From: Przondovirus KP32i192
DNA length: 40,168 nt
Strand: one strand, 5' to 3'
Sequence record: OZ035748.1
In this document: piece after piece, positions 1 through 40,168 of the stretch
How the letters are laid out: each line of letters begins with the position of its first letter
Numbering within the stretch: the stretch's first letter is position 1
Made by a program: the position numbers and the translations under genes
Notes under the pieces: model-generated
The model's input: the letters and a program-made list of their open reading frames with translations, nothing else
Told to the model about the DNA's origin: nothing
The model's database searches: none

Positions 1-26
1 ACTGGAAGAAAGCTAATAAGGAGTAA
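1..26 (+). CDS. Holin (T7 gp17.5-like), 3' end of the gene that begins at 39991; window is a circular permutation
   Basis: Bases 1-26 read tgg aag aaa gct aat aag gag taa in frame with the ORF running off the window end at 40168; joined product is 67 aa and ends WKKANKE like T7 gp17.5. Confidence 0.75.
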
Positions 27-29
27 CAT

Positions 30-287
30 ATGGACCTGATTAAGTTCCTCGAAATGTTAGACACTGAGATGGCTCAGCAGATGCTCATGGACCTGAAGAA
101 CCCAGAGAAGCGAACCCCTCAGCTGTACAACGCCATTGGTAAACTACTGGAGCGCCATAAGTTCCAAATCTCTAAGCTGACCCCTGACGTTAACATCTTG
201 GGCGGACTGGCTGAGGGTCTGGAGGCTTACAACTCCAAGGTGGGTGCTGATGGTCTGACAGACGACGATAAGTTCACCCTACAGTGA
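30..287 (+). CDS. Terminase small subunit / DNA maturation protein A (T7 gp18-like)
   Basis: 85-aa ORF; strong similarity to recalled T7 gp18 (FLEMLDT..AQ.ML.DL...PQLYNAI.KLL.RHKFQI.KL.PDV.ILGGLA...GLTDDD); RBS aaggag upstream. Confidence 0.85.
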   Translation: MDLIKFLEMLDTEMAQQMLMDLKNPEKRTPQLYNAIGKLLERHKFQISKLTPDVNILGGLAEGLEAYNSKVGADGLTDDDKFTLQ

Positions 288-326
288 TATACTCAAGGTA
301 CTACTATATGTAGTGCCTTTATGGAT
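288..326 (+). promoter_or_regulatory. RNase III-type processing hairpin (R18.5-like)
   Basis: ctcAAGGTACTACtatatGTAGTGCCTTtatg: 10-bp stem with one G-U pair, flanked by conserved ctcaagg / cctttatg motifs shared with four other sites in the window. Confidence 0.55.
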
Positions 327-383
327 GTCATTGCACTACGCTAGGCGTTCCTACGTGAAATCTGAGAAACAACGGGAGGCATT

Positions 384-830
384 ATGCTGGAGTTCACAAA
401 GAGAATCGTCCCGTATCTTGTGGCTATCATGGTGTTTGCCTTCGGGTGGCACTTGGGTTCGCAATCTACGGACGCTAAATGGAAGGAGGAAGTACAGAAT
501 GAGTACGTTAAGAAGCAAACGGCTAGAGCTGAAACTCAGAAAGCGATTGACGCAGTATCGGCTAAGTACCAAGCAGACCTTGAGGGGCTGGAGGGCAGCA
601 CTGATAGGGTTATTGCTGATTTGCGTAGCGACAATAAGCGGCTGCGCGTCAGAGTCAAACCTACCAGTGTCACCGCAGGACCAGACGGTCGATGCCTCGT
701 TGATGGTTCCGTCGAACTACACGAAGCAACTGCTCGAAGTCTTATCGCAATAACCCAGAAGGCCGACCTCAAAGAGAAGGCCCTACAGGACACTATTCGC
801 AAGCTACAGAGGAAAGGAGGTGAACATTGA
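384..830 (+). CDS. i-spanin (Rz-like, T7 gp18.5-like)
   Basis: 148-aa ORF with N-terminal TM segment; near-identical blocks to recalled T7 gp18.5 ([31 protein letters not shown]). Confidence 0.85.
499..753 (+). CDS. o-spanin (Rz1-like, T7 gp18.7-like) embedded in +1 frame inside the i-spanin gene
   Basis: Internal Met of the 313..753 ORF; product MSTLRSKR...[19 protein letters not shown] has signal peptide plus lipobox (ISGC) and matches recalled T7 gp18.7. Confidence 0.7.
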   Translation: MSTLRSKRLELKLRKRLTQYRLSTKQTLRGWRAALIGLLLICVATISGCASESNLPVSPQDQTVDASLMVPSNYTKQLLEVLSQ

Positions 831-2584
831 GTAACTCTCAGCAAGCCAAGAACGCCTTAATCATTGCGCAACTGAAGGGTGACTTTGTCGCCTTTCTCTT
901 CGTGCTCTGGAAGGCCCTGAACCTGCCGGAACCAACCAAGTGTCAAATCGACATGGCCAAGTGCCTGGCGAACCCAAAGAACAAGAAGTTTATCCTTCAG
1001 GCTTTCCGTGGTATCGGGAAGTCATTCATCACGTGTGCGTTCGTAGTGTGGACCCTTTGGCGTGACCCTCAGTTAAAGATACTGATTGTCTCAGCCTCAA
1101 AGGAACGTGCGGACGCTAACTCCATCTTCATCAAGAACATCATCGACTTGTTGCCTTTCCTGAGTGAGCTTAAGCCTCGCCCCGGTCAGCGTGACTCCGT
1201 GATTAGCTTTGATGTAGGCCCTGCCAAGCCGGACCACAGCCCGTCAGTTAAGTCTGTGGGTATTACGGGTCAGCTTACTGGTAGCCGTGCCGATATCATC
1301 ATTGCGGATGACGTGGAGATTCCCGGTAACTCTGCGACTCAAGGTGCTCGTGAGAAACTCTGGACGCTGGTTCAGGAGTTCGCTGCACTGTTGAAACCCC
1401 TGCCGACTAGCCGTGTTATCTATCTGGGTACCCCTCAGACCGAGATGACGCTCTACAAGGAACTTGAGGACAACCGTGGGTACTCCACCATCATTTGGCC
1501 TGCGCAGTATCCTCGCTCCAAAGAGGAAGACCTGTACTATGGCGACCGACTGGCACCGATGCTCCGCAGTGAGTACGATGAGGACAAAGAGGGTCTCAGC
1601 AGCCAACCTACCGACCCGGTTCGATTCGACTCCATGGACCTTCAGGAGCGTGAGGTGGAATACGGTAAGGCTGGCTACACGCTTCAGTTCATGCTCAACC
1701 CGAACCTTAGTGACGCCGAGAAGTATCCTCTACGCCTCCGTGACGCTATCGTGTGCGGTCTACAGATGGACAAGGCCCCAATGCATTACCAGTGGTTGCC
1801 GAATCGTCAGAACCGCAATGAGGAGCTTCCTAACGTGGGCATGAAGGGTGACGAGATTTACTCATTCCATACGGCATCCAGTAACACTGGTACGTATCAG
1901 GGTAAGATTCTGGTCATCGACCCAAGTGGTCGCGGTAAGGATGAGACTGGCTGGTGCGTACTGTACACCCTCAACGGCTACATCTACCTGATGGACGCTG
2001 GCGGCACTCGCGGTTACGAAGAGAAGTCCCTTGAGTTCCTCGCTAAGAAAGCAAAACAGTGGCAGGTTCAGACTGTGGTCTTCGAGAGTAACTTCGGTGA
2101 CGGTATGTTCGGTAACGTCTTCCAGCCTGTGCTCCTGAAGCATCACCCAGCGCAGCTCGAAGAGATTCGTGCTCGTGGTATGAAAGAGGTACGTATCTGC
2201 GATACCCTTGAGCCTGTACTGGCAAGTCACCGCTTGGTCATCCGCGATGAGGTAATCCGACAGGACTACCAGACGGCACGGGACGCAGACGGTAAGCACG
2301 CTCTGAAGTACAGCCTGTTCTACCAGATGACCCGTATGAGCCGTGAGAAGGGTGCTGTGGCACACGATGACCGACTTGATGCATTAGCATTGGGTGTCGA
2401 GTTCCTACGCTCTACGATGCAGCAGGACGCTGTGAAGATAGAGGCTGAGGTACTTCAGGAGTTCTTGGAGCACCACATGGAGAAGCCCCTGAGTAACATC
2501 TCCCAGTTCCGGGTCACCAGTAGCAACGGTGTGGACATCCGATGGGAAGACGACGGGGACGACTCTATGTTCATCGCATGGTGA
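827..2584 (+). CDS. Terminase large subunit / DNA maturation protein B (T7 gp19-like), TTG start
   Basis: 585-aa ORF collinear with recalled T7 gp19 ([25 protein letters not shown], ATPase and nuclease blocks); start is TTG 6 nt after aaggagg. Confidence 0.9.
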
Positions 2585-2664
2585 TTATGCAAGGATTGTG
2601 CATAAGGATTCATTAGGCCACGGAAGGCCACTTTGAGGAAACTCCATGTATAACAGACACTTGG

Positions 2665-2687
2665 AATTAGGGCACACTATAGGGAGA
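2665..2687 (+). promoter_or_regulatory. Phage RNAP promoter (phiOR-like, right end)
   Basis: AATTAGGGCACACTATAGGGAGA, full match to the window consensus; +1 G at 2682. Confidence 0.75.
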
Positions 2688-2828
2688 GACCCTTGAAGAC
2701 TTACTATAAGACAACTTAAAGATTCATTCATATAGTTATTCACTTTAAGTCTCCTTAAAGGTAGAGGGTAGTGATGATAATATCACCCTCTCACTACAAG
2801 ACACTAAGAGCCAACATAAGGAGGACCT

Positions 2829-2978
2829 ATGCGCTTATTGTTAACCTTACTGCGCCATAGGACTACTTGGCGATTTCTGCTGGTACTTGCTGGTGCCCTT
2901 GGGGCTTCACTGGTTACTCAGCAGCAACTCAGTGGACTGGAGACTCTCGTGTGCTCTCTACTCACTTGTAGCGATTAG
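2829..2978 (+). CDS. Small hydrophobic protein (gp19.5-like by position)
   Basis: 49-aa ORF with aaggagg RBS 8 nt upstream; hydrophobic; lies between terminase gene and genome end as gene 19.5 does in T7. Confidence 0.4.
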   Translation: MRLLLTLLRHRTTWRFLLVLAGALGASLVTQQQLSGLETLVCSLLTCSD

Positions 2979-3039
2979 GGTCTTCCTGACGCGCTAGGGA
3001 TTCCGTAGTGATGCTTATCAGCATACACCACTCCATCCC

Positions 3040-3440
3040 TCTATAGTCAATACTTAAAGTTAACCTTAGGTGATTCACTGGGTCTACCTACGGGTCTATG
3101 CACTGACCTGAGGACTACCTGAGGTTACCTTTAAGAATTTTACATAAAGTTCTGAGTGTACATCTCACAGTTTACACTTTTGGTCATCCCCCCCGGTACC
3201 CCTCCAGTTCACCCAAAGTAACCATGGGTACCCCCCTCTTTACCTTCAGTTTAACCTTGGGTGGTACCTTGGGAGTCCTTAGGTGATACTATATGTTGTG
3301 GTGTGGGTGACCTGAGGATACTATATGTTGATGTCTCTGTGTCCCTATCTGTTGGCCCTCTTTAAGTATCCACTGAGTACCACCTGAGGTTAGACCTGAG
3401 GTAATACCGGAGACCATATACCTTAGGTTAACCATGCGGC
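3040..3440. repeat. Array of short CCT(T/G)(A/G)GG heptamer repeats flanking the terminal-repeat region
   Basis: At least 9 copies of ccttagg / cctgagg / ccttggg, plus a 20-bp imperfect direct repeat (ccttaggtgatactatatgttg at 3277-3298, cctgaggatactatatgttg at 3311-3330); analogous to the short repeats near T7 genome ends. Confidence 0.5.
3163..3350. repeat. Putative direct terminal repeat (single collapsed copy) with predicted physical left end near 3163
   Basis: TCTCACAG at 3163-3170 matches the recalled T7 left-end sequence; TCTCTGTGTCCCTATCTGTT at about 3334-3353 matches the conserved block near the inner edge of the T7 terminal repeat; boundaries inferred. Confidence 0.35.
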
Positions 3441-3492
3441 CATCTGGTGAGTCATCACTATAGGGCTATTGGTGGTCATTGTCAATCAATCC

Positions 3493-3515
3493 TATTAGGA
3501 CACACTATAGGGAGA
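3493..3515 (+). promoter_or_regulatory. Phage RNAP promoter (phiOL-like, left end)
   Basis: TATTAGGACACACTATAGGGAGA; +1 G at 3510. Confidence 0.65.
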
Positions 3516-3594
3516 CACTTAAAGTATTACTTAGGGACCATCACCATAAAGATCACCATCACTATAGGTCTAACTAAAAGTTTAACTTTAAGTG

Positions 3595-3623
3595 TTGACA
3601 TTCAGATTCCGTTATGAGACATT
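3595..3623 (+). promoter_or_regulatory. Candidate host sigma70 early promoter (A1-like)
   Basis: -35 TTGACA (3595-3600), 17-bp spacer, weak -10 GACATT (3618-3623); position and flanks resemble T7 A1. Confidence 0.35.
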
Positions 3624-13277: not shown

Positions 13278-13733
13278 ATGGCTAAGGTTCAATTCACCAA
13301 GCGACAGGAGACCTCTCAGATTTTCGTTCACTGTTCAGCCACCAAGGCAACCATGGACGTAGGTGTCCGCGAGATTCGCCAGTGGCATAAAGAGCAGGGC
13401 TGGCTTGACGTTGGGTATCACTTCATCATCCGTCGTGATGGTACCGTTGAGGCGGGCCGTGACCAAGATGCTGTTGGTTCACACGTCAAGGGATACAACT
13501 CGACCTCTGTCGGTGTATGTCTGGTGGGCGGTATCGACGCCAAGGGTAACCCTGAGGCAAACTTCACTCCAGCCCAGATGCAGTCGCTGCGTTCACTGCT
13601 GGTAGAACTGAAGGTGCAATACTCTGGGGCCGTTCTGATGGCACACCATGACGTAGCGCCTAAAGCCTGCCCGAGCTTCGACCTGAAGCGCTGGTGGGAG
13701 AAGAACGAACTGGTCACTTCTGACAGGGGCTGA
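13278..13733 (+). CDS. Lysozyme / N-acetylmuramoyl-L-alanine amidase (T7 gp3.5-like)
   Basis: 151-aa product from internal ATG with aaaggag RBS; FVHCSATK...VGVREIRQWHKEQGWLDVGYHFII and C-terminal ACPSFDLKRWWEKNELVTSDRG match T7 lysozyme. Confidence 0.92.
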   Translation: MAKVQFTKRQETSQIFVHCSATKATMDVGVREIRQWHKEQGWLDVGYHFIIRRDGTVEAGRDQDAVGSHVKGYNSTSVGVCLVGGIDAKGNPEANFTPAQMQSLRSLLVELKVQYSGAVLMAHHDVAPKACPSFDLKRWWEKNELVTSDRG

Positions 13734-13734
13734 C

Positions 13735-13842
13735 ATGGTTACGCAGGCTCTCATCATATTCGGATTGCCAATCCTGATAGTTGGTACGCTTTACTGTACC
13801 AACAAGGAGTGGTTCAGCGACGGACAAGAGTAGATAATTAGG
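13735..13842 (+). CDS. Tiny hydrophobic ORF (35 aa)
   Basis: Hand-translated; ATG overlaps lysozyme stop; no clear RBS. Confidence 0.2.
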
Positions 13843-13859
13843 GCACACTACAGGGAGAC
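13837..13859 (+). promoter_or_regulatory. Phage RNAP promoter (phi3.8-like), variant -2 C
   Basis: AATTAGGGCACACTACAGGGAGA; transcript begins with hairpin GGGAGAC/GTTTCCC. Confidence 0.55.
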
Positions 13860-13983
13860 AATTACGTTTCCCTGTTGTCACACATTCTGTACAAATTATG
13901 GTCAGGCTAAGGTGCACTTGGCGTAGCGCTGCGCTTCATTCGGGTTCGATTCCCGGACTGACCACACCAACGGAGATTACTTT

Positions 13984-14096
13984 ATGAACAAGGTATTTGA
14001 CGTATTCTTCATGTTTGTCCTGACAGTTGCGGTCATTACCATCGCTGTACTGGTGGGTACGGTTGCAATCGGTGTATTACACGAGGTAGGTTTAAT

Positions 14097-14100
<4 letters not shown>
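13984..14100 (+). CDS. Small membrane protein (38 aa)
   Basis: MNKVFDVFFMFVLTVAVITIAVLVGTVAIGVLHEVGLI; single predicted TM. Confidence 0.3.
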
Positions 14101-15943
<1,843 letters not shown>

Positions 15944-23094: not shown

Positions 23095-23115
23095 TTAGGG
23101 CACACTATAGGGAGA
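23093..23115 (+). promoter_or_regulatory. Phage RNAP promoter (phi9-like)
   Basis: AATTAGGGCACACTATAGGGAGA. Confidence 0.75.
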
Positions 23116-23197
23116 CACATCCAGATTGAATGAGGTCTGGTCAGAAGGTTCGAGTCCTTCGTGTTTCCCTCCTAGTCTTAACTTTAAGGAGATTGAA

Positions 23198-39990: not shown

Positions 39991-40168
39991 ATGTTATCCC
40001 TAGACTTCAACAACGAAGTTATCAAGGCGGCTCCCATTGCGGGGGTCGCTGGGGCTGATGGCGTAGCGAGGCTCTTCTGGGGCCTCTCACTCAACGAGTG
40101 GTTCTACGTCGCGGCAATCGCCTACACAGTGGTTCAGATTGGTGCCAAGGTAGTCGACAAAATCATTG
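39991..40168 (+). CDS. Holin (T7 gp17.5-like), 5' part; continues at window positions 1-26
   Basis: MLSLDFNNEVIKAAPIAGVAGADGVARLFWGLSLNEWFYVAAIAYTVVQIGAKVVDKII nearly identical to recalled T7 gp17.5; ORF runs off the window end. Confidence 0.8.
   Translation, partial: MLSLDFNNEVIKAAPIAGVAGADGVARLFWGLSLNEWFYVAAIAYTVVQIGAKVVDKII

What the first reader, a model, noticed from the sequence alone, without database searches (positions are those of the whole stretch)
13862..13980. Structured leader after the phi3.8-like promoter containing a tRNA T-arm-like motif
The transcript start forms a hairpin (GGGAGAC/GTTTCCC), followed by a branched structure whose outer stem GGTCAG(13900)/CTGACC closes a region containing CGGGTTCGATTCCCG, a near-canonical tRNA T-stem-loop. 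The element is about 64 nt and lacks plausible D and anticodon arms, so it is not a functional tRNA. It may be a tRNA-derived fragment or an RNase P / RNase III processing signal.
Basis: partly seen in the sequence, partly recalled or inferred. Interest (0 to 1): 0.35.

Follow-up and report, generated by a model that had tools for sequence, protein, structure and literature searches.

The report
Mini tRNA-like cloverleaf in phage leader
About a third of the T7-like Klebsiella phage records searched carry an optional 90-base insert in the messenger leader ahead of the DNA primase operon; it folds into a shrunken, non-decoding tRNA look-alike that has not been annotated and may recruit the host's tRNA-processing enzymes.

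Summary
The window is a K11/KP32-like Klebsiella phage (Przondovirus). After the phi3.8-equivalent promoter (+1 = 13853) comes the usual 5' hairpin (13853-13872). It matches the hairpin in the T7 phi3.8 leader, where the R3.8 RNase III site lies.

A 66-nt cloverleaf follows at 13900-13965:
- a 7-bp acceptor-like stem;
- a 3-bp D-like stem;
- a 5-bp anticodon-like stem with a 6-nt loop;
- a canonical T arm (UCGGG-UUCGAUU-CCCGG);
- discriminator A, but no CCA.

It is not a decoding tRNA: ARAGORN at default and Rfam at gathering thresholds find nothing.

The cloverleaf sits in a clean 90-nt indel (13882-13971). The insert is present in 144 phage records and absent from 24 very close relatives and from T7 and T3-like phages.

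Among 15 variants every stem substitution keeps pairing, including a full U:A -> U.G -> C:G series. Loops are invariant. Diversity is about 8-fold (whole cloverleaf) to 25-fold (its 3' half) below synonymous sites of the adjacent gene.

Best reading, untested: a tRNA mimic in the mRNA that host RNase P cuts at U13899/G13900, leaving a structured 5' end on the gene-4 operon mRNA.

Rivals are a passive stabiliser, a protein-binding mimic or decoy, and a neutral relic.

A second T-loop-like leader lies after phi9 and is conserved in T7 itself.

The parts
13836..13858 (+). Phage (K11-type) RNA polymerase promoter, phi3.8 equivalent; +1 = G13853
   Evidence: Matches the window's promoter consensus with 1 mismatch; 10 such sites against 0 expected. 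K11 carries an annotated promoter at the same place after gene 3.5. T7 phi3.8 is at the same map position.
13853..13872 (+). 5'-terminal hairpin GGGAGAC-AAUUAC-GUUUCCC; in read-through RNA it extends into a longer irregular hairpin. Counterpart of the hairpin in the T7 phi3.8 leader, where the R3.8 RNase III site lies
   Evidence: RNAfold. The T7 phi3.8 leader folds the same way. In T7 the R3.8 cleavage site lies just downstream of the phi3.8 start (PMC6938266). Present in carriers and non-carriers alike.
13882..13971 (+). 90-nt optional insert, replaced by UUGA in relatives that lack it: an 18-nt A/U-rich 5' part, the cloverleaf, and the CACCAAC tail
   Evidence: Leaders of 24 K11-type relatives read ...CUGUUGUCGC-UUGA-GGAGAUUACUUUAUG, and T7 and T3-like leaders also lack the insert. 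Carriers were aligned.
13900..13965 (+). 66-nt tRNA-like cloverleaf (non-decoding)
   Evidence: RNAfold; tRNA-clan covariance-model hit 13899-13964; cloverleaf drawing by ARAGORN -ps80 (a drawing aid only); own covariance model scores 103.7 bits and finds a single copy in the window.
13900..13906 (+). Acceptor-like stem, 5' strand GGUCAGG. It pairs with 13957-13963; G13906.A13957 is a mismatch, and U13899:A13964 could extend the stem
   Evidence: All 15 variants are paired. Pair T13902:A13961 shows U:A (13 variants), U.G (1) and C:G (1, locus L128).
13907..13919 (+). D-like arm: 3-bp stem AAG/CUU (longer in the RNAfold model) with loop GUGCA
   Evidence: The stem covaries: AAG/CUU, CAG/CUG and UAG/CUG. 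One variant (K5, CAG/CUU) breaks a pair. This is the most variable part of the element, pi 0.091.
13920..13935 (+). Anticodon-like arm: stem GGCGU/GCGCU with an invariant, palindromic 6-nt loop AGCGCU
   Evidence: ARAGORN -ps80 drawing. Pair G13921:C13934 shows G:C (4 variants), G.U (9) and A:U (2), and is never unpaired.
13940..13956 (+). Canonical T arm UCGGG-UUCGAUU-CCCGG, directly abutting the acceptor 3' strand
   Evidence: Sequence. The loop is invariant in all variants. Stem changes U.G->C:G and C:G->U.G keep pairing.
13957..13964 (+). Acceptor 3' strand ACUGACC plus discriminator-like A13964, followed by CAC rather than CCA
   Evidence: Sequence. 140f-type variants read A-CCU or A-CCC instead.
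13972..13986 (+). Shine-Dalgarno GGAG and the ATG (13984) of the first small ORF of the gene-4 operon, 8 nt after the cloverleaf's discriminator-like A13964
   Evidence: ORF list. GGAGAUUACUUUAUG is shared by carriers and non-carriers.

Best explanation
What it is (well supported): an accessory 90-nt cassette in the phi3.8 mRNA leader of a subset of K11/KP32-like Klebsiella phages. Its core is a 66-nt miniaturised cloverleaf with a true tRNA acceptor/T-arm half but stunted D and anticodon arms. It is an RNA-level tRNA mimic, not a decoding tRNA.

How it most likely works (inferred):
1. It is transcribed by the phage polymerase, from phi3.8 and by read-through from upstream class II promoters.
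2. The acceptor/T-arm stack is recognised by host RNase P. The stack is 7 + 5 bp, with a canonical T loop, U at -1 and G+1:C72.
3. RNase P cuts between U13899 and G13900. This removes the leader, including the hairpin that corresponds to the T7 R3.8 region.
4. All transcripts then share a uniform, fully base-paired 5'-monophosphate end.
5. That end shields the mRNA for the small ORFs and the gene-4 primase/helicase from 5'-end-dependent decay.

A stable ~66-75 nt tRNA-like RNA could also be released if a second cut occurs 3' of the stem.
For: Anatomy:
- The T arm is canonical and abuts a 7-bp acceptor-like stem with no linker. U is at -1 and G1:C72 is present.
- The only Rfam resemblance is to the tRNA clan.

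Constraint:
- All 255 pair cells in 15 variants are paired.
- Pair 3:70 shows the full series U:A -> U.G -> C:G.
- The anticodon-like stem pair shows G:C / G.U / A:U, and the T-stem changes are wobble-preserving.
- The D-like stem covaries.
- The T loop, the AGCGCU loop and the variable region never change.
- Diversity among 28 carriers: pi = 0.032 for the cloverleaf and 0.011 for its 3' half, against 0.272 at third codon positions of the adjacent amidase gene.
- The 140f lineage has a T3-like promoter and flanking genes about 72% identical, yet keeps the 3' 47 nt with 2 changes, both pair-preserving.

Context:
- The element lies 27 nt after the leader's 5'-terminal hairpin and 8 nt before the SD.
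- In T7 the RNA downstream of R3.8 is depleted (PMC6938266), so a 5' stabiliser at this spot has a plausible benefit.

Not coding: the type-B variants carry +1 nt, which puts a stop after 9 codons of the overlapping ORF.
Against: - No cleavage or RNA-end data exist; none were found in the literature library.
- There is no CCA after the discriminator (A-CAC). CCA is a positive RNase P determinant in enterobacteria.
- U-1 can pair with A73, and G7.A66 is a mismatch.
- The element is dispensable. It is absent from 24 near-identical relatives, and only 142 of the 418 Klebsiella phage records that match the region carry it.
- The whole leader is also very conserved (pi 0.016-0.072). Low diversity could therefore reflect recent spread by recombination rather than selection on the element.
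- Covariation statistics are weak because diversity is low: 43 of 500 shuffles reach the observed score.
Confidence: 0.4

Rival explanations
1. Passive structural module. The compact four-way junction acts simply as a stable 5'-proximal structure. It would block RNase E entry or scanning after RNase III cleavage at the upstream hairpin, or insulate the SD from upstream sequence, without any recognition by tRNA enzymes.
For: The domain is stable and independent in every context folded. It lies between the leader's 5'-terminal hairpin and the SD. T7 shows RNA depletion downstream of R3.8. Pairing is conserved.
Against: It does not explain why the 7-nt T loop, the AGCGCU loop and the variable region are invariant. 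It also does not explain why the fold copies tRNA geometry and the exact UUCGAUU T-loop sequence, when any hairpin would do.
Confidence: 0.2
2. Neutral relic. The element is a decayed fragment of an acquired tRNA gene, or another hitch-hiking insertion, spread among Klebsiella phages by recombination in a highly conserved leader, with no function.
For: It is optional, and the indel is polymorphic among phages whose amidase is 99-100% identical. The arms are degenerate and there is no CCA. The flanking leader is equally homogeneous. The downstream ORFs are modular and mosaic, which indicates frequent recombination here.
Against: Every stem substitution preserves pairing, and there are two complete compensatory series. 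No loop substitutions occur. The element is retained at about 96% identity in a lineage whose flanks are about 72% identical. No intact tRNA occupies this site in any of 217 loci. No donor tRNA was found by an exact 21-mer scan of 185,579 species genomes, nor in E. coli genomes, phages or plasmids.
Confidence: 0.2
3. tRNA mimic that binds a tRNA-binding protein. Candidates are (a) a translational operator next to the SD, like the E. coli thrS leader; (b) a substrate or chaperone site for TruB or TrmA; or (c) a decoy for a host tRNA-directed defence enzyme.
For: The T loop and AGCGCU loop are invariant. The element is 8 nt from the SD. Accessory, patchy distribution is typical of host-range or counter-defence modules.
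Against: There is no 7-nt anticodon loop to mimic a particular tRNA. No partner protein can be named. Nothing in the flanking genes points to defence. This reading is pure inference.
Confidence: 0.15
4. RNase III processing site, small protein-coding ORF (13898-13987), or host sigma-70 promoter (TTGTCA-16-TATGGT at 13875-13902, annotated as 'promoter' in phage KpV763).
For: T7 has an RNase III site in this leader. An ATG-initiated 29-codon ORF overlaps the element. There is a 9/12 sigma-70 match.
Against: RNase III: no long duplex exists in the cloverleaf, and the hairpin that matches the T7 phi3.8 leader hairpin is the upstream one, which non-carriers also have.

ORF: it has no SD and is frameshifted to a 9-codon stop in type-B variants.

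Promoter: most variants read TTGTCG, which weakens the -35. Three such matches occur in 700 nt against 0.8 expected in shuffles. The predicted start would fall inside the acceptor stem.
Confidence: 0.04

Closest known systems
Canonical bacterial/phage tRNA (Rfam RF00005 / clan CL00001)
   Same: Four-arm cloverleaf. 7-bp acceptor stem stacked on a 5-bp T stem. T loop UUCGAUU. G1:C72. Discriminator A.
   Different: 66 nt long. 3-bp D stem with a 5-6 nt loop. 6-nt 'anticodon' loop without U33. No CCA. Below all detection thresholds. Embedded in an mRNA leader 8 nt from an SD.
mascRNA / MEN-beta tRNA-like elements of MALAT1 and NEAT1 (eukaryotic; own knowledge)
   Same: A ~60-nt degenerate cloverleaf inside a long non-tRNA transcript. 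It has a poorly tRNA-like anticodon loop and acts as an RNase P cleavage signal that defines an RNA end.
   Different: Those are eukaryotic nuclear lncRNAs, where the element defines the 3' end of the upstream RNA. There is no sequence homology and no Rfam hit here. Processing of the phage element is unproven.
Non-tRNA RNase P substrates in bacteria and phages (own knowledge): C4 antisense RNA of P1/P7, phi80 M3 RNA, 4.5S and tmRNA precursors, intercistronic sites in his/tna/rbs operon mRNAs
   Same: An acceptor/T-arm-like coaxial helix embedded in another transcript and used by host RNase P.
   Different: None is described in T7-group phages, whose mRNA processing is attributed to RNase III. 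This one is a full four-way cloverleaf.
T7 R3.8 RNase III site
   Same: Same leader, immediately after the phi3.8 start. It is a processing element of class II transcripts.
   Different: The counterpart of the T7 leader hairpin is the 5' hairpin at 13853-13872, present in carriers and non-carriers. The cloverleaf is an extra module downstream and lacks an RNase III-type duplex.
tRNA-mimicking translational operators (E. coli thrS leader) and tRNA-mRNA co-transcripts (thrU-tyrU-glyT-thrT-tufB); own knowledge
   Same: A tRNA or tRNA-like structure directly upstream of a translated gene on the same transcript.
   Different: thrS mimics an anticodon arm, and here the anticodon arm is the least tRNA-like part. 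The tufB operon carries real tRNAs.
phi9 leader three-way junction of T7-group phages (this study; window 23110-23168)
   Same: It follows a phage promoter and contains a T-loop-like hairpin (GAAGG-UUCGAGU-CCUUC) abutting the 3' strand of a closing stem.
   Different: It starts at +1, has three arms, is not an indel, and is conserved in T7, T3-like and K11-like phages with 8 compensatory pairs. No sequence homology to the phi3.8 cloverleaf is evident.

Membership tests
Canonical tRNA | 7-bp acceptor stem coaxial with a 5-bp T stem, and a 7-nt T loop UUCRANY | tested here: met
   GGUCAGG/ACUGACC (one G.A mismatch at 7:66) abuts UCGGG-UUCGAUU-CCCGG.
Canonical tRNA | 5-bp anticodon stem with a 7-nt loop (U33, 3-nt anticodon, R37) | tested here: not met
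   The stem exists, but the loop is 6 nt (AGCGCU) with no U33. ARAGORN reports a 2-nt 'anticodon'.
Canonical tRNA | D arm with a 3-4 bp stem and a 7-11 nt loop carrying G18G19 | tested here: not met
   3-bp stem with a 5-6 nt loop (GUGCA or GUGCCA), read.
Canonical tRNA | Detected by tRNA finders or covariance models at their thresholds | tested here: not met
   ARAGORN at default finds 0 genes. Rfam at gathering finds 0. Best hit is tRNA-Sec at 18.2 bits against 47. ARAGORN calls it only at -ps85/-ps80, where shuffled sequence gives 4 and 24 hits per 40 kb.
Canonical tRNA | Encoded 3' CCA after the discriminator (rule in enterobacteria; own knowledge) | tested here: not met
   A13964 is followed by CAC. 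The 140f type has A-CCU or A-CCC.
Bacterial RNase P substrate | About 12-bp acceptor/T-stem stack with an intact T loop | tested here: met
   7 + 5 bp, or 7 + 6 in the RNAfold model. The T loop is invariant.
Bacterial RNase P substrate | Favourable cleavage-site context: U at -1 and G+1:C72 | tested here: met
   U13899, and G13900:C13963.
Bacterial RNase P substrate | 3' RCCA that pairs with the P15 loop of the RNase P RNA | tested here: not met
   The window has ACAC; ACC is present only in 140f-type variants.
Bacterial RNase P substrate | Actual cleavage by RNase P | not testable with these tools
   No end-mapping data were found.
mascRNA-type tRNA-like element (Rfam mascRNA-menRNA) | Match to the family model | tested here: not met
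   No hit at E <= 10 in 13700-14150.
mascRNA-type tRNA-like element (Rfam mascRNA-menRNA) | Degenerate cloverleaf embedded in a longer transcript | tested here: met
   The element lies in the leader between the promoter and the first ORF, with no terminator. This is resemblance in kind only, not homology.
T7-type RNase III site | Irregular hairpin of about 20 bp or more with an internal loop | tested here: not met
   The longest helix in the cloverleaf is 7 bp. The upstream promoter/hairpin region does form such a structure in both T7 and the window.
Viral 3' tRNA-like structure / tmRNA tRNA-like domain | Located at an RNA 3' end with CCA, and aminoacylatable; for tmRNA, paired 5'/3' ends plus a tag reading frame | tested here: not met
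   The element is internal and has no CCA. ARAGORN's tmRNA search finds nothing.

The most novel reading that the evidence does not exclude
T7-group phages use tRNA-shaped modules in their late and middle mRNA leaders as a second processing or recognition system that depends on the host tRNA machinery, alongside RNase III. The optional phi3.8 cloverleaf of Klebsiella phages would be an RNase P 'punctuation' signal, or a decoy for a tRNA-directed host factor. The universally conserved phi9 leader, with its T-loop hairpin, would be a related tRNA-elbow mimic present even in T7 itself.
Probability: 0.2. Interest if true: 0.75.

Novelty: new variant of a known kind. Interest (0 to 1): 0.5.

Why it matters
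T7-type phages are the textbook case of mRNA processing by host RNase III only. They are also chassis for engineered Klebsiella phage therapeutics.

A conserved but optional tRNA mimic sits in front of the primase/helicase operon. None of the GenBank records whose annotation was inspected lists an RNA feature there; the features under the match were none, 'hypothetical protein' or 'promoter'. This suggests an unrecognised link between these phages and the host tRNA machinery (RNase P, and possibly TruB or TrmA).

It would also be a natural, compact 5' processing and stabilising cassette. The natural presence/absence alleles (90 nt against UUGA) make the question directly testable with existing phage isolates.

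Tried and rejected
- **ARAGORN default and Rfam gathering thresholds:** nothing found.
- **ARAGORN at relaxed thresholds:** it draws a cloverleaf, but this is not evidence. At -ps85/-ps80 the window gives 10/28 hits and shuffles give 4.1/24.1. One -ps95 'tRNA-Arg' at 40044-40122 lies inside the holin gene.
- **Donor tRNA search, all negative:**
  - An exact 21-mer (T arm plus acceptor 3' strand) in 185,579 species genomes gave 3 chance hits inside protein-coding sequence and no tRNA.
  - E. coli genomes gave only a 34-nt tRNA-Glu T-arm match at E = 7.
  - The phage database outside Klebsiella/Raoultella gave only short T-arm matches to real tRNAs.
  - Plasmids gave nothing.
- **Intact tRNA at this site in relatives:** none in 217 loci.
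- **Extra copies in the window:** none with the covariance model, filters off.
- **Coding ORF 13898-13987:** rejected because it is frameshifted in type-B variants.
- **Sigma-70 promoter at 13875-13902:** weak, and degraded in most variants.
- **Intrinsic terminator:** none.
- **T7 class II pause signal (ATCTGTT-like CATTCTGT):** the matching positions vary among carriers, so it is rejected.
- **Long-range pairing UCUGU / ACGGA that would hide the SD:** not conserved in ZX10, HJK2 or 140f variants.
- **Target-site duplication or terminal inverted repeats at the insert ends:** none seen by eye.
- **Literature:** no description of a tRNA-like element in Przondovirus or Autographiviridae leaders, and no transcript-end mapping for these phages.

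Full report
**Identity of the window.**
A 1.4-kb query around the finding matches 651 phage records. The best are Klebsiella/Raoultella phages of the K11/KP32 group (Przondovirus, Studiervirinae) at 95-99% identity.

The element lies between the gp3.5 amidase (13278-13733) plus a 32-codon ORF, and two small ORFs followed by the gp4 primase/helicase (14213-15943). K11 carries an annotated phage promoter at the same place, and T7 has phi3.8 there. The window holds 10 copies of the K11-type promoter. The copy at 13836-13858 puts +1 at G13853.

**The observation.**
All the features described are present.

The transcript starts with GGGAGAC-AAUUAC-GUUUCCC (13853-13872). The T7 phi3.8 leader folds the same way, and in read-through RNA both extend into a longer irregular hairpin. 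In T7 the RNase III site R3.8 lies just downstream of the phi3.8 start (PMC6938266). This first hairpin is therefore an ordinary, ancestral feature and the likely RNase III element.

Downstream, 13899-13964 folds as a four-way junction at -28.4 kcal/mol (z = -2.87). Its parts are:
- acceptor-like stem GGUCAG(G)/(A)CUGACC;
- a D-like hairpin;
- a small middle hairpin;
- a T arm UCGGG-UUCGAUU-CCCGG that abuts the acceptor 3' strand.

**Is it a tRNA?**
It is not a decoding tRNA.
- ARAGORN at default and Rfam at gathering thresholds find nothing.
- A permissive Rfam scan gives only the tRNA clan: tRNA-Sec, 18.2 bits against 47, E = 0.55.
- With thresholds lowered, ARAGORN draws a 66-nt cloverleaf (13900-13965). 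It has a 3-bp D stem, a 5-bp anticodon-like stem closing a 6-nt loop AGCGCU, a 4-nt variable region, discriminator A, and then CAC instead of CCA.

The relaxed ARAGORN call serves only as a drawing. At those thresholds shuffled sequence yields 4-24 'tRNAs' per 40 kb. T-arm-like hairpins alone are also not rare enough to be significant (3 observed against 1.07 expected).

**Distribution.**
The 101-nt stretch occurs in 144 phage records, 142 Klebsiella and 2 Raoultella, at 90-100% identity and nowhere else in the phage database. It occurs in 28 IMG/VR contigs and 13 metagenome contigs, all at the same genomic position.

Of 80 IMG/VR loci retrieved through the amidase, 28 carry it. Another 24 K11-type relatives lack it, including phages whose amidase is 99-100% identical to the window's. 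Their leader reads ...CUGUUGUCGC-UUGA-GGAGAUUACUUUAUG. T7, T3-like and other relatives lack it too.

The element is therefore a clean 90-nt indel (13882-13971). It consists of:
- an 18-nt A/U-rich 5' part;
- the cloverleaf;
- a CACCAAC tail.

It was most simply inserted in an ancestor of some Klebsiella phages and has since been shuffled by recombination.

No intact tRNA occupies this site in any of 217 fetched loci. No donor tRNA was found in species-representative genomes, E. coli genomes, plasmids or other phages. The covariance model built from the variants finds a single copy in the window.

**Evidence for constraint.**
Fifteen distinct variants were collected. For the acceptor, anticodon-like and T stems, all 255 pair cells are standard pairs. 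Every stem substitution preserves pairing:
- Pair 3:70 goes U:A -> U.G (9 loci) -> C:G (locus L128).
- The second pair of the anticodon-like stem shows G:C, G.U and A:U.
- Pair 49:65 goes U.G -> C:G.
- Pair 50:64 goes C:G -> U.G.
- The D-like stem reads AAG/CUU, CAG/CUG or UAG/CUG. One variant (K5) mixes the 5' strand of one type with the 3' strand of another and breaks a pair.

The T loop, the AGCGCU loop and the variable region never change.

The shuffle control is weak because the sequences are so similar: 43 of 500 shuffles reach the observed score.

Among the 28 IMG/VR carriers, nucleotide diversity is:

| Region | pi |
|---|---|
| Amidase, third codon positions | 0.272 |
| Whole cloverleaf | 0.032 |
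| Cloverleaf 3' half | 0.011 |
| D-like arm | 0.091 |
| Rest of the leader | 0.016-0.072 |

 Because the whole leader is similarly uniform, homogenisation by recombination cannot be excluded.

The strongest single datum is the 140f lineage. It has a T3-like promoter, flanking genes about 72% identical, and a different 3' junction leading straight to gene 4. Yet the 3' 47 nt of the cloverleaf differ at 2 positions, both pair-preserving.

**Excluded readings.**
- The overlapping 29-codon ORF is frameshifted to a stop after 9 codons in type-B variants.
- The sigma-70-like match that one GenBank record annotates as 'promoter' is weak and is degraded in most variants.
- There is no terminator.
- There is no RNase III-type duplex in the cloverleaf.

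**Mechanism.**
Shown: a conserved, optional tRNA-shaped RNA domain sits in the mRNA leader. It lies 27 nt after the leader's 5'-terminal hairpin and 8 nt before the SD of the gene-4 operon.

Inferred: the acceptor/T-arm half meets most sequence determinants of a bacterial RNase P substrate. It has a 12-bp stack, a T loop, U-1 and G1:C72, but it lacks CCA. RNase P would then cut at 13899/13900 and leave a base-paired 5' end. In T7 the RNA downstream of R3.8 is depleted, so a protective 5' structure here would plausibly raise expression of the primase/helicase operon.

Rival readings are a passive structure, a protein-binding mimic or decoy, and a neutral relic. The invariant loops and the compensatory changes argue against the relic and against a purely structural role. 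The dispensability and the lack of CCA argue for caution.

**Comparison with known systems.**
The element works like a mascRNA-type or RNase P 'punctuation' element and like other non-tRNA RNase P substrates. It fails membership of the tRNA family on four tested features and has no Rfam family.

No paper in the library describes it. In the GenBank records whose annotation was listed or inspected, the features under the match were none, 'hypothetical protein' or 'promoter'.

I rate it a new variant of a known kind and of moderate interest.

**Side finding.**
The phi9 leader (window 23110-23168) is a three-way junction that starts at +1. Its second hairpin is a T-arm look-alike (GAAGG-UUCGAGU-CCUUC) abutting the closing stem.

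The same architecture is present in T7 (GAGG-UUGGAGU-CCUC), T3-like and other relatives. The first loop is conserved (UUUGAAAUGAG), and 8 of 17 pairs show compensatory changes.

Two of the three T-arm-like hairpins in the window thus lie within 100 nt of phage promoter starts.

Noticed in passing
window 23095-23170 (promoter 23095-23115, leader 23110-23168); T7 locus L093 166-230: The phi9 leader upstream of the scaffold gene is a three-way junction that starts at +1. It has a closing stem GGGAGACAC/GUGUUUCCC, a hairpin with a conserved loop UUGAAUGAGG, and a T-arm-like hairpin GAAGG-UUCGAGU-CCUUC abutting the closing stem. The architecture is conserved in T7, T3-like and other Studiervirinae, with 8 of 17 pairs showing compensatory double changes. 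The window has no Rfam hit at gathering thresholds. ARAGORN at -ps85 even calls it 'tRNA-Leu'.
   Followed up: partly
window 13984-14216 and the homologous positions in L009-L058: The small ORFs between the conserved SD (GGAGAUUACUUUAUG) and gene 4 are modular. At least five unrelated first ORFs (MNKVFDVF..., MNKFKEHF..., MSKDHII..., MNNLKDF..., MRKMDLV...) follow the same leader in near-identical phages. SH-Kp152410 adds an HNH endonuclease gene. This is a recombination hot spot flanked by conserved 'linker' sequence.
   Followed up: no
window 13735-13833: A 32-codon ORF (MVTQALIIFGLPILIVGTLYCTNKEWFSDGQE, hydrophobic) lies between the amidase and the promoter. It is present in KpV763-type phages and absent in K11, where the promoter follows gene 3.5 directly. 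It is a second indel polymorphism in this intergenic region.
   Followed up: no
window 13875-13902: GenBank record KX591654 (KpV763) annotates a 'promoter' here. It is a 9/12 sigma-70 match (TTGTCA-16-TATGGT) whose -10 overlaps the start of the cloverleaf. Most relatives read TTGTCG, so it is probably a prediction artefact.
   Followed up: partly
window 40044-40122: ARAGORN at -ps95 calls a 'tRNA-Arg(tct)' here. It lies inside the holin-like ORF that starts at 39991, so it is a false positive.
   Followed up: yes
window 1-3600: The window is circularly permuted relative to the standard T7-type map. It starts in the terminase (gene 19) region, and strong phage promoters at 2667 and 3495 precede the early region and the RNA polymerase gene (around 7300).
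   Followed up: no
window 13890-13930: Three 6-bp palindromes lie within 40 nt of the insert: TGTACA at 13889-13894, GTGCAC at 13912-13917 and AGCGCT at 13925-13930. About 1.4 are expected by chance in 90 nt. Only AGCGCU, the anticodon-like loop, is invariant; a self-complementary loop could in principle mediate kissing dimerisation.
   Followed up: no
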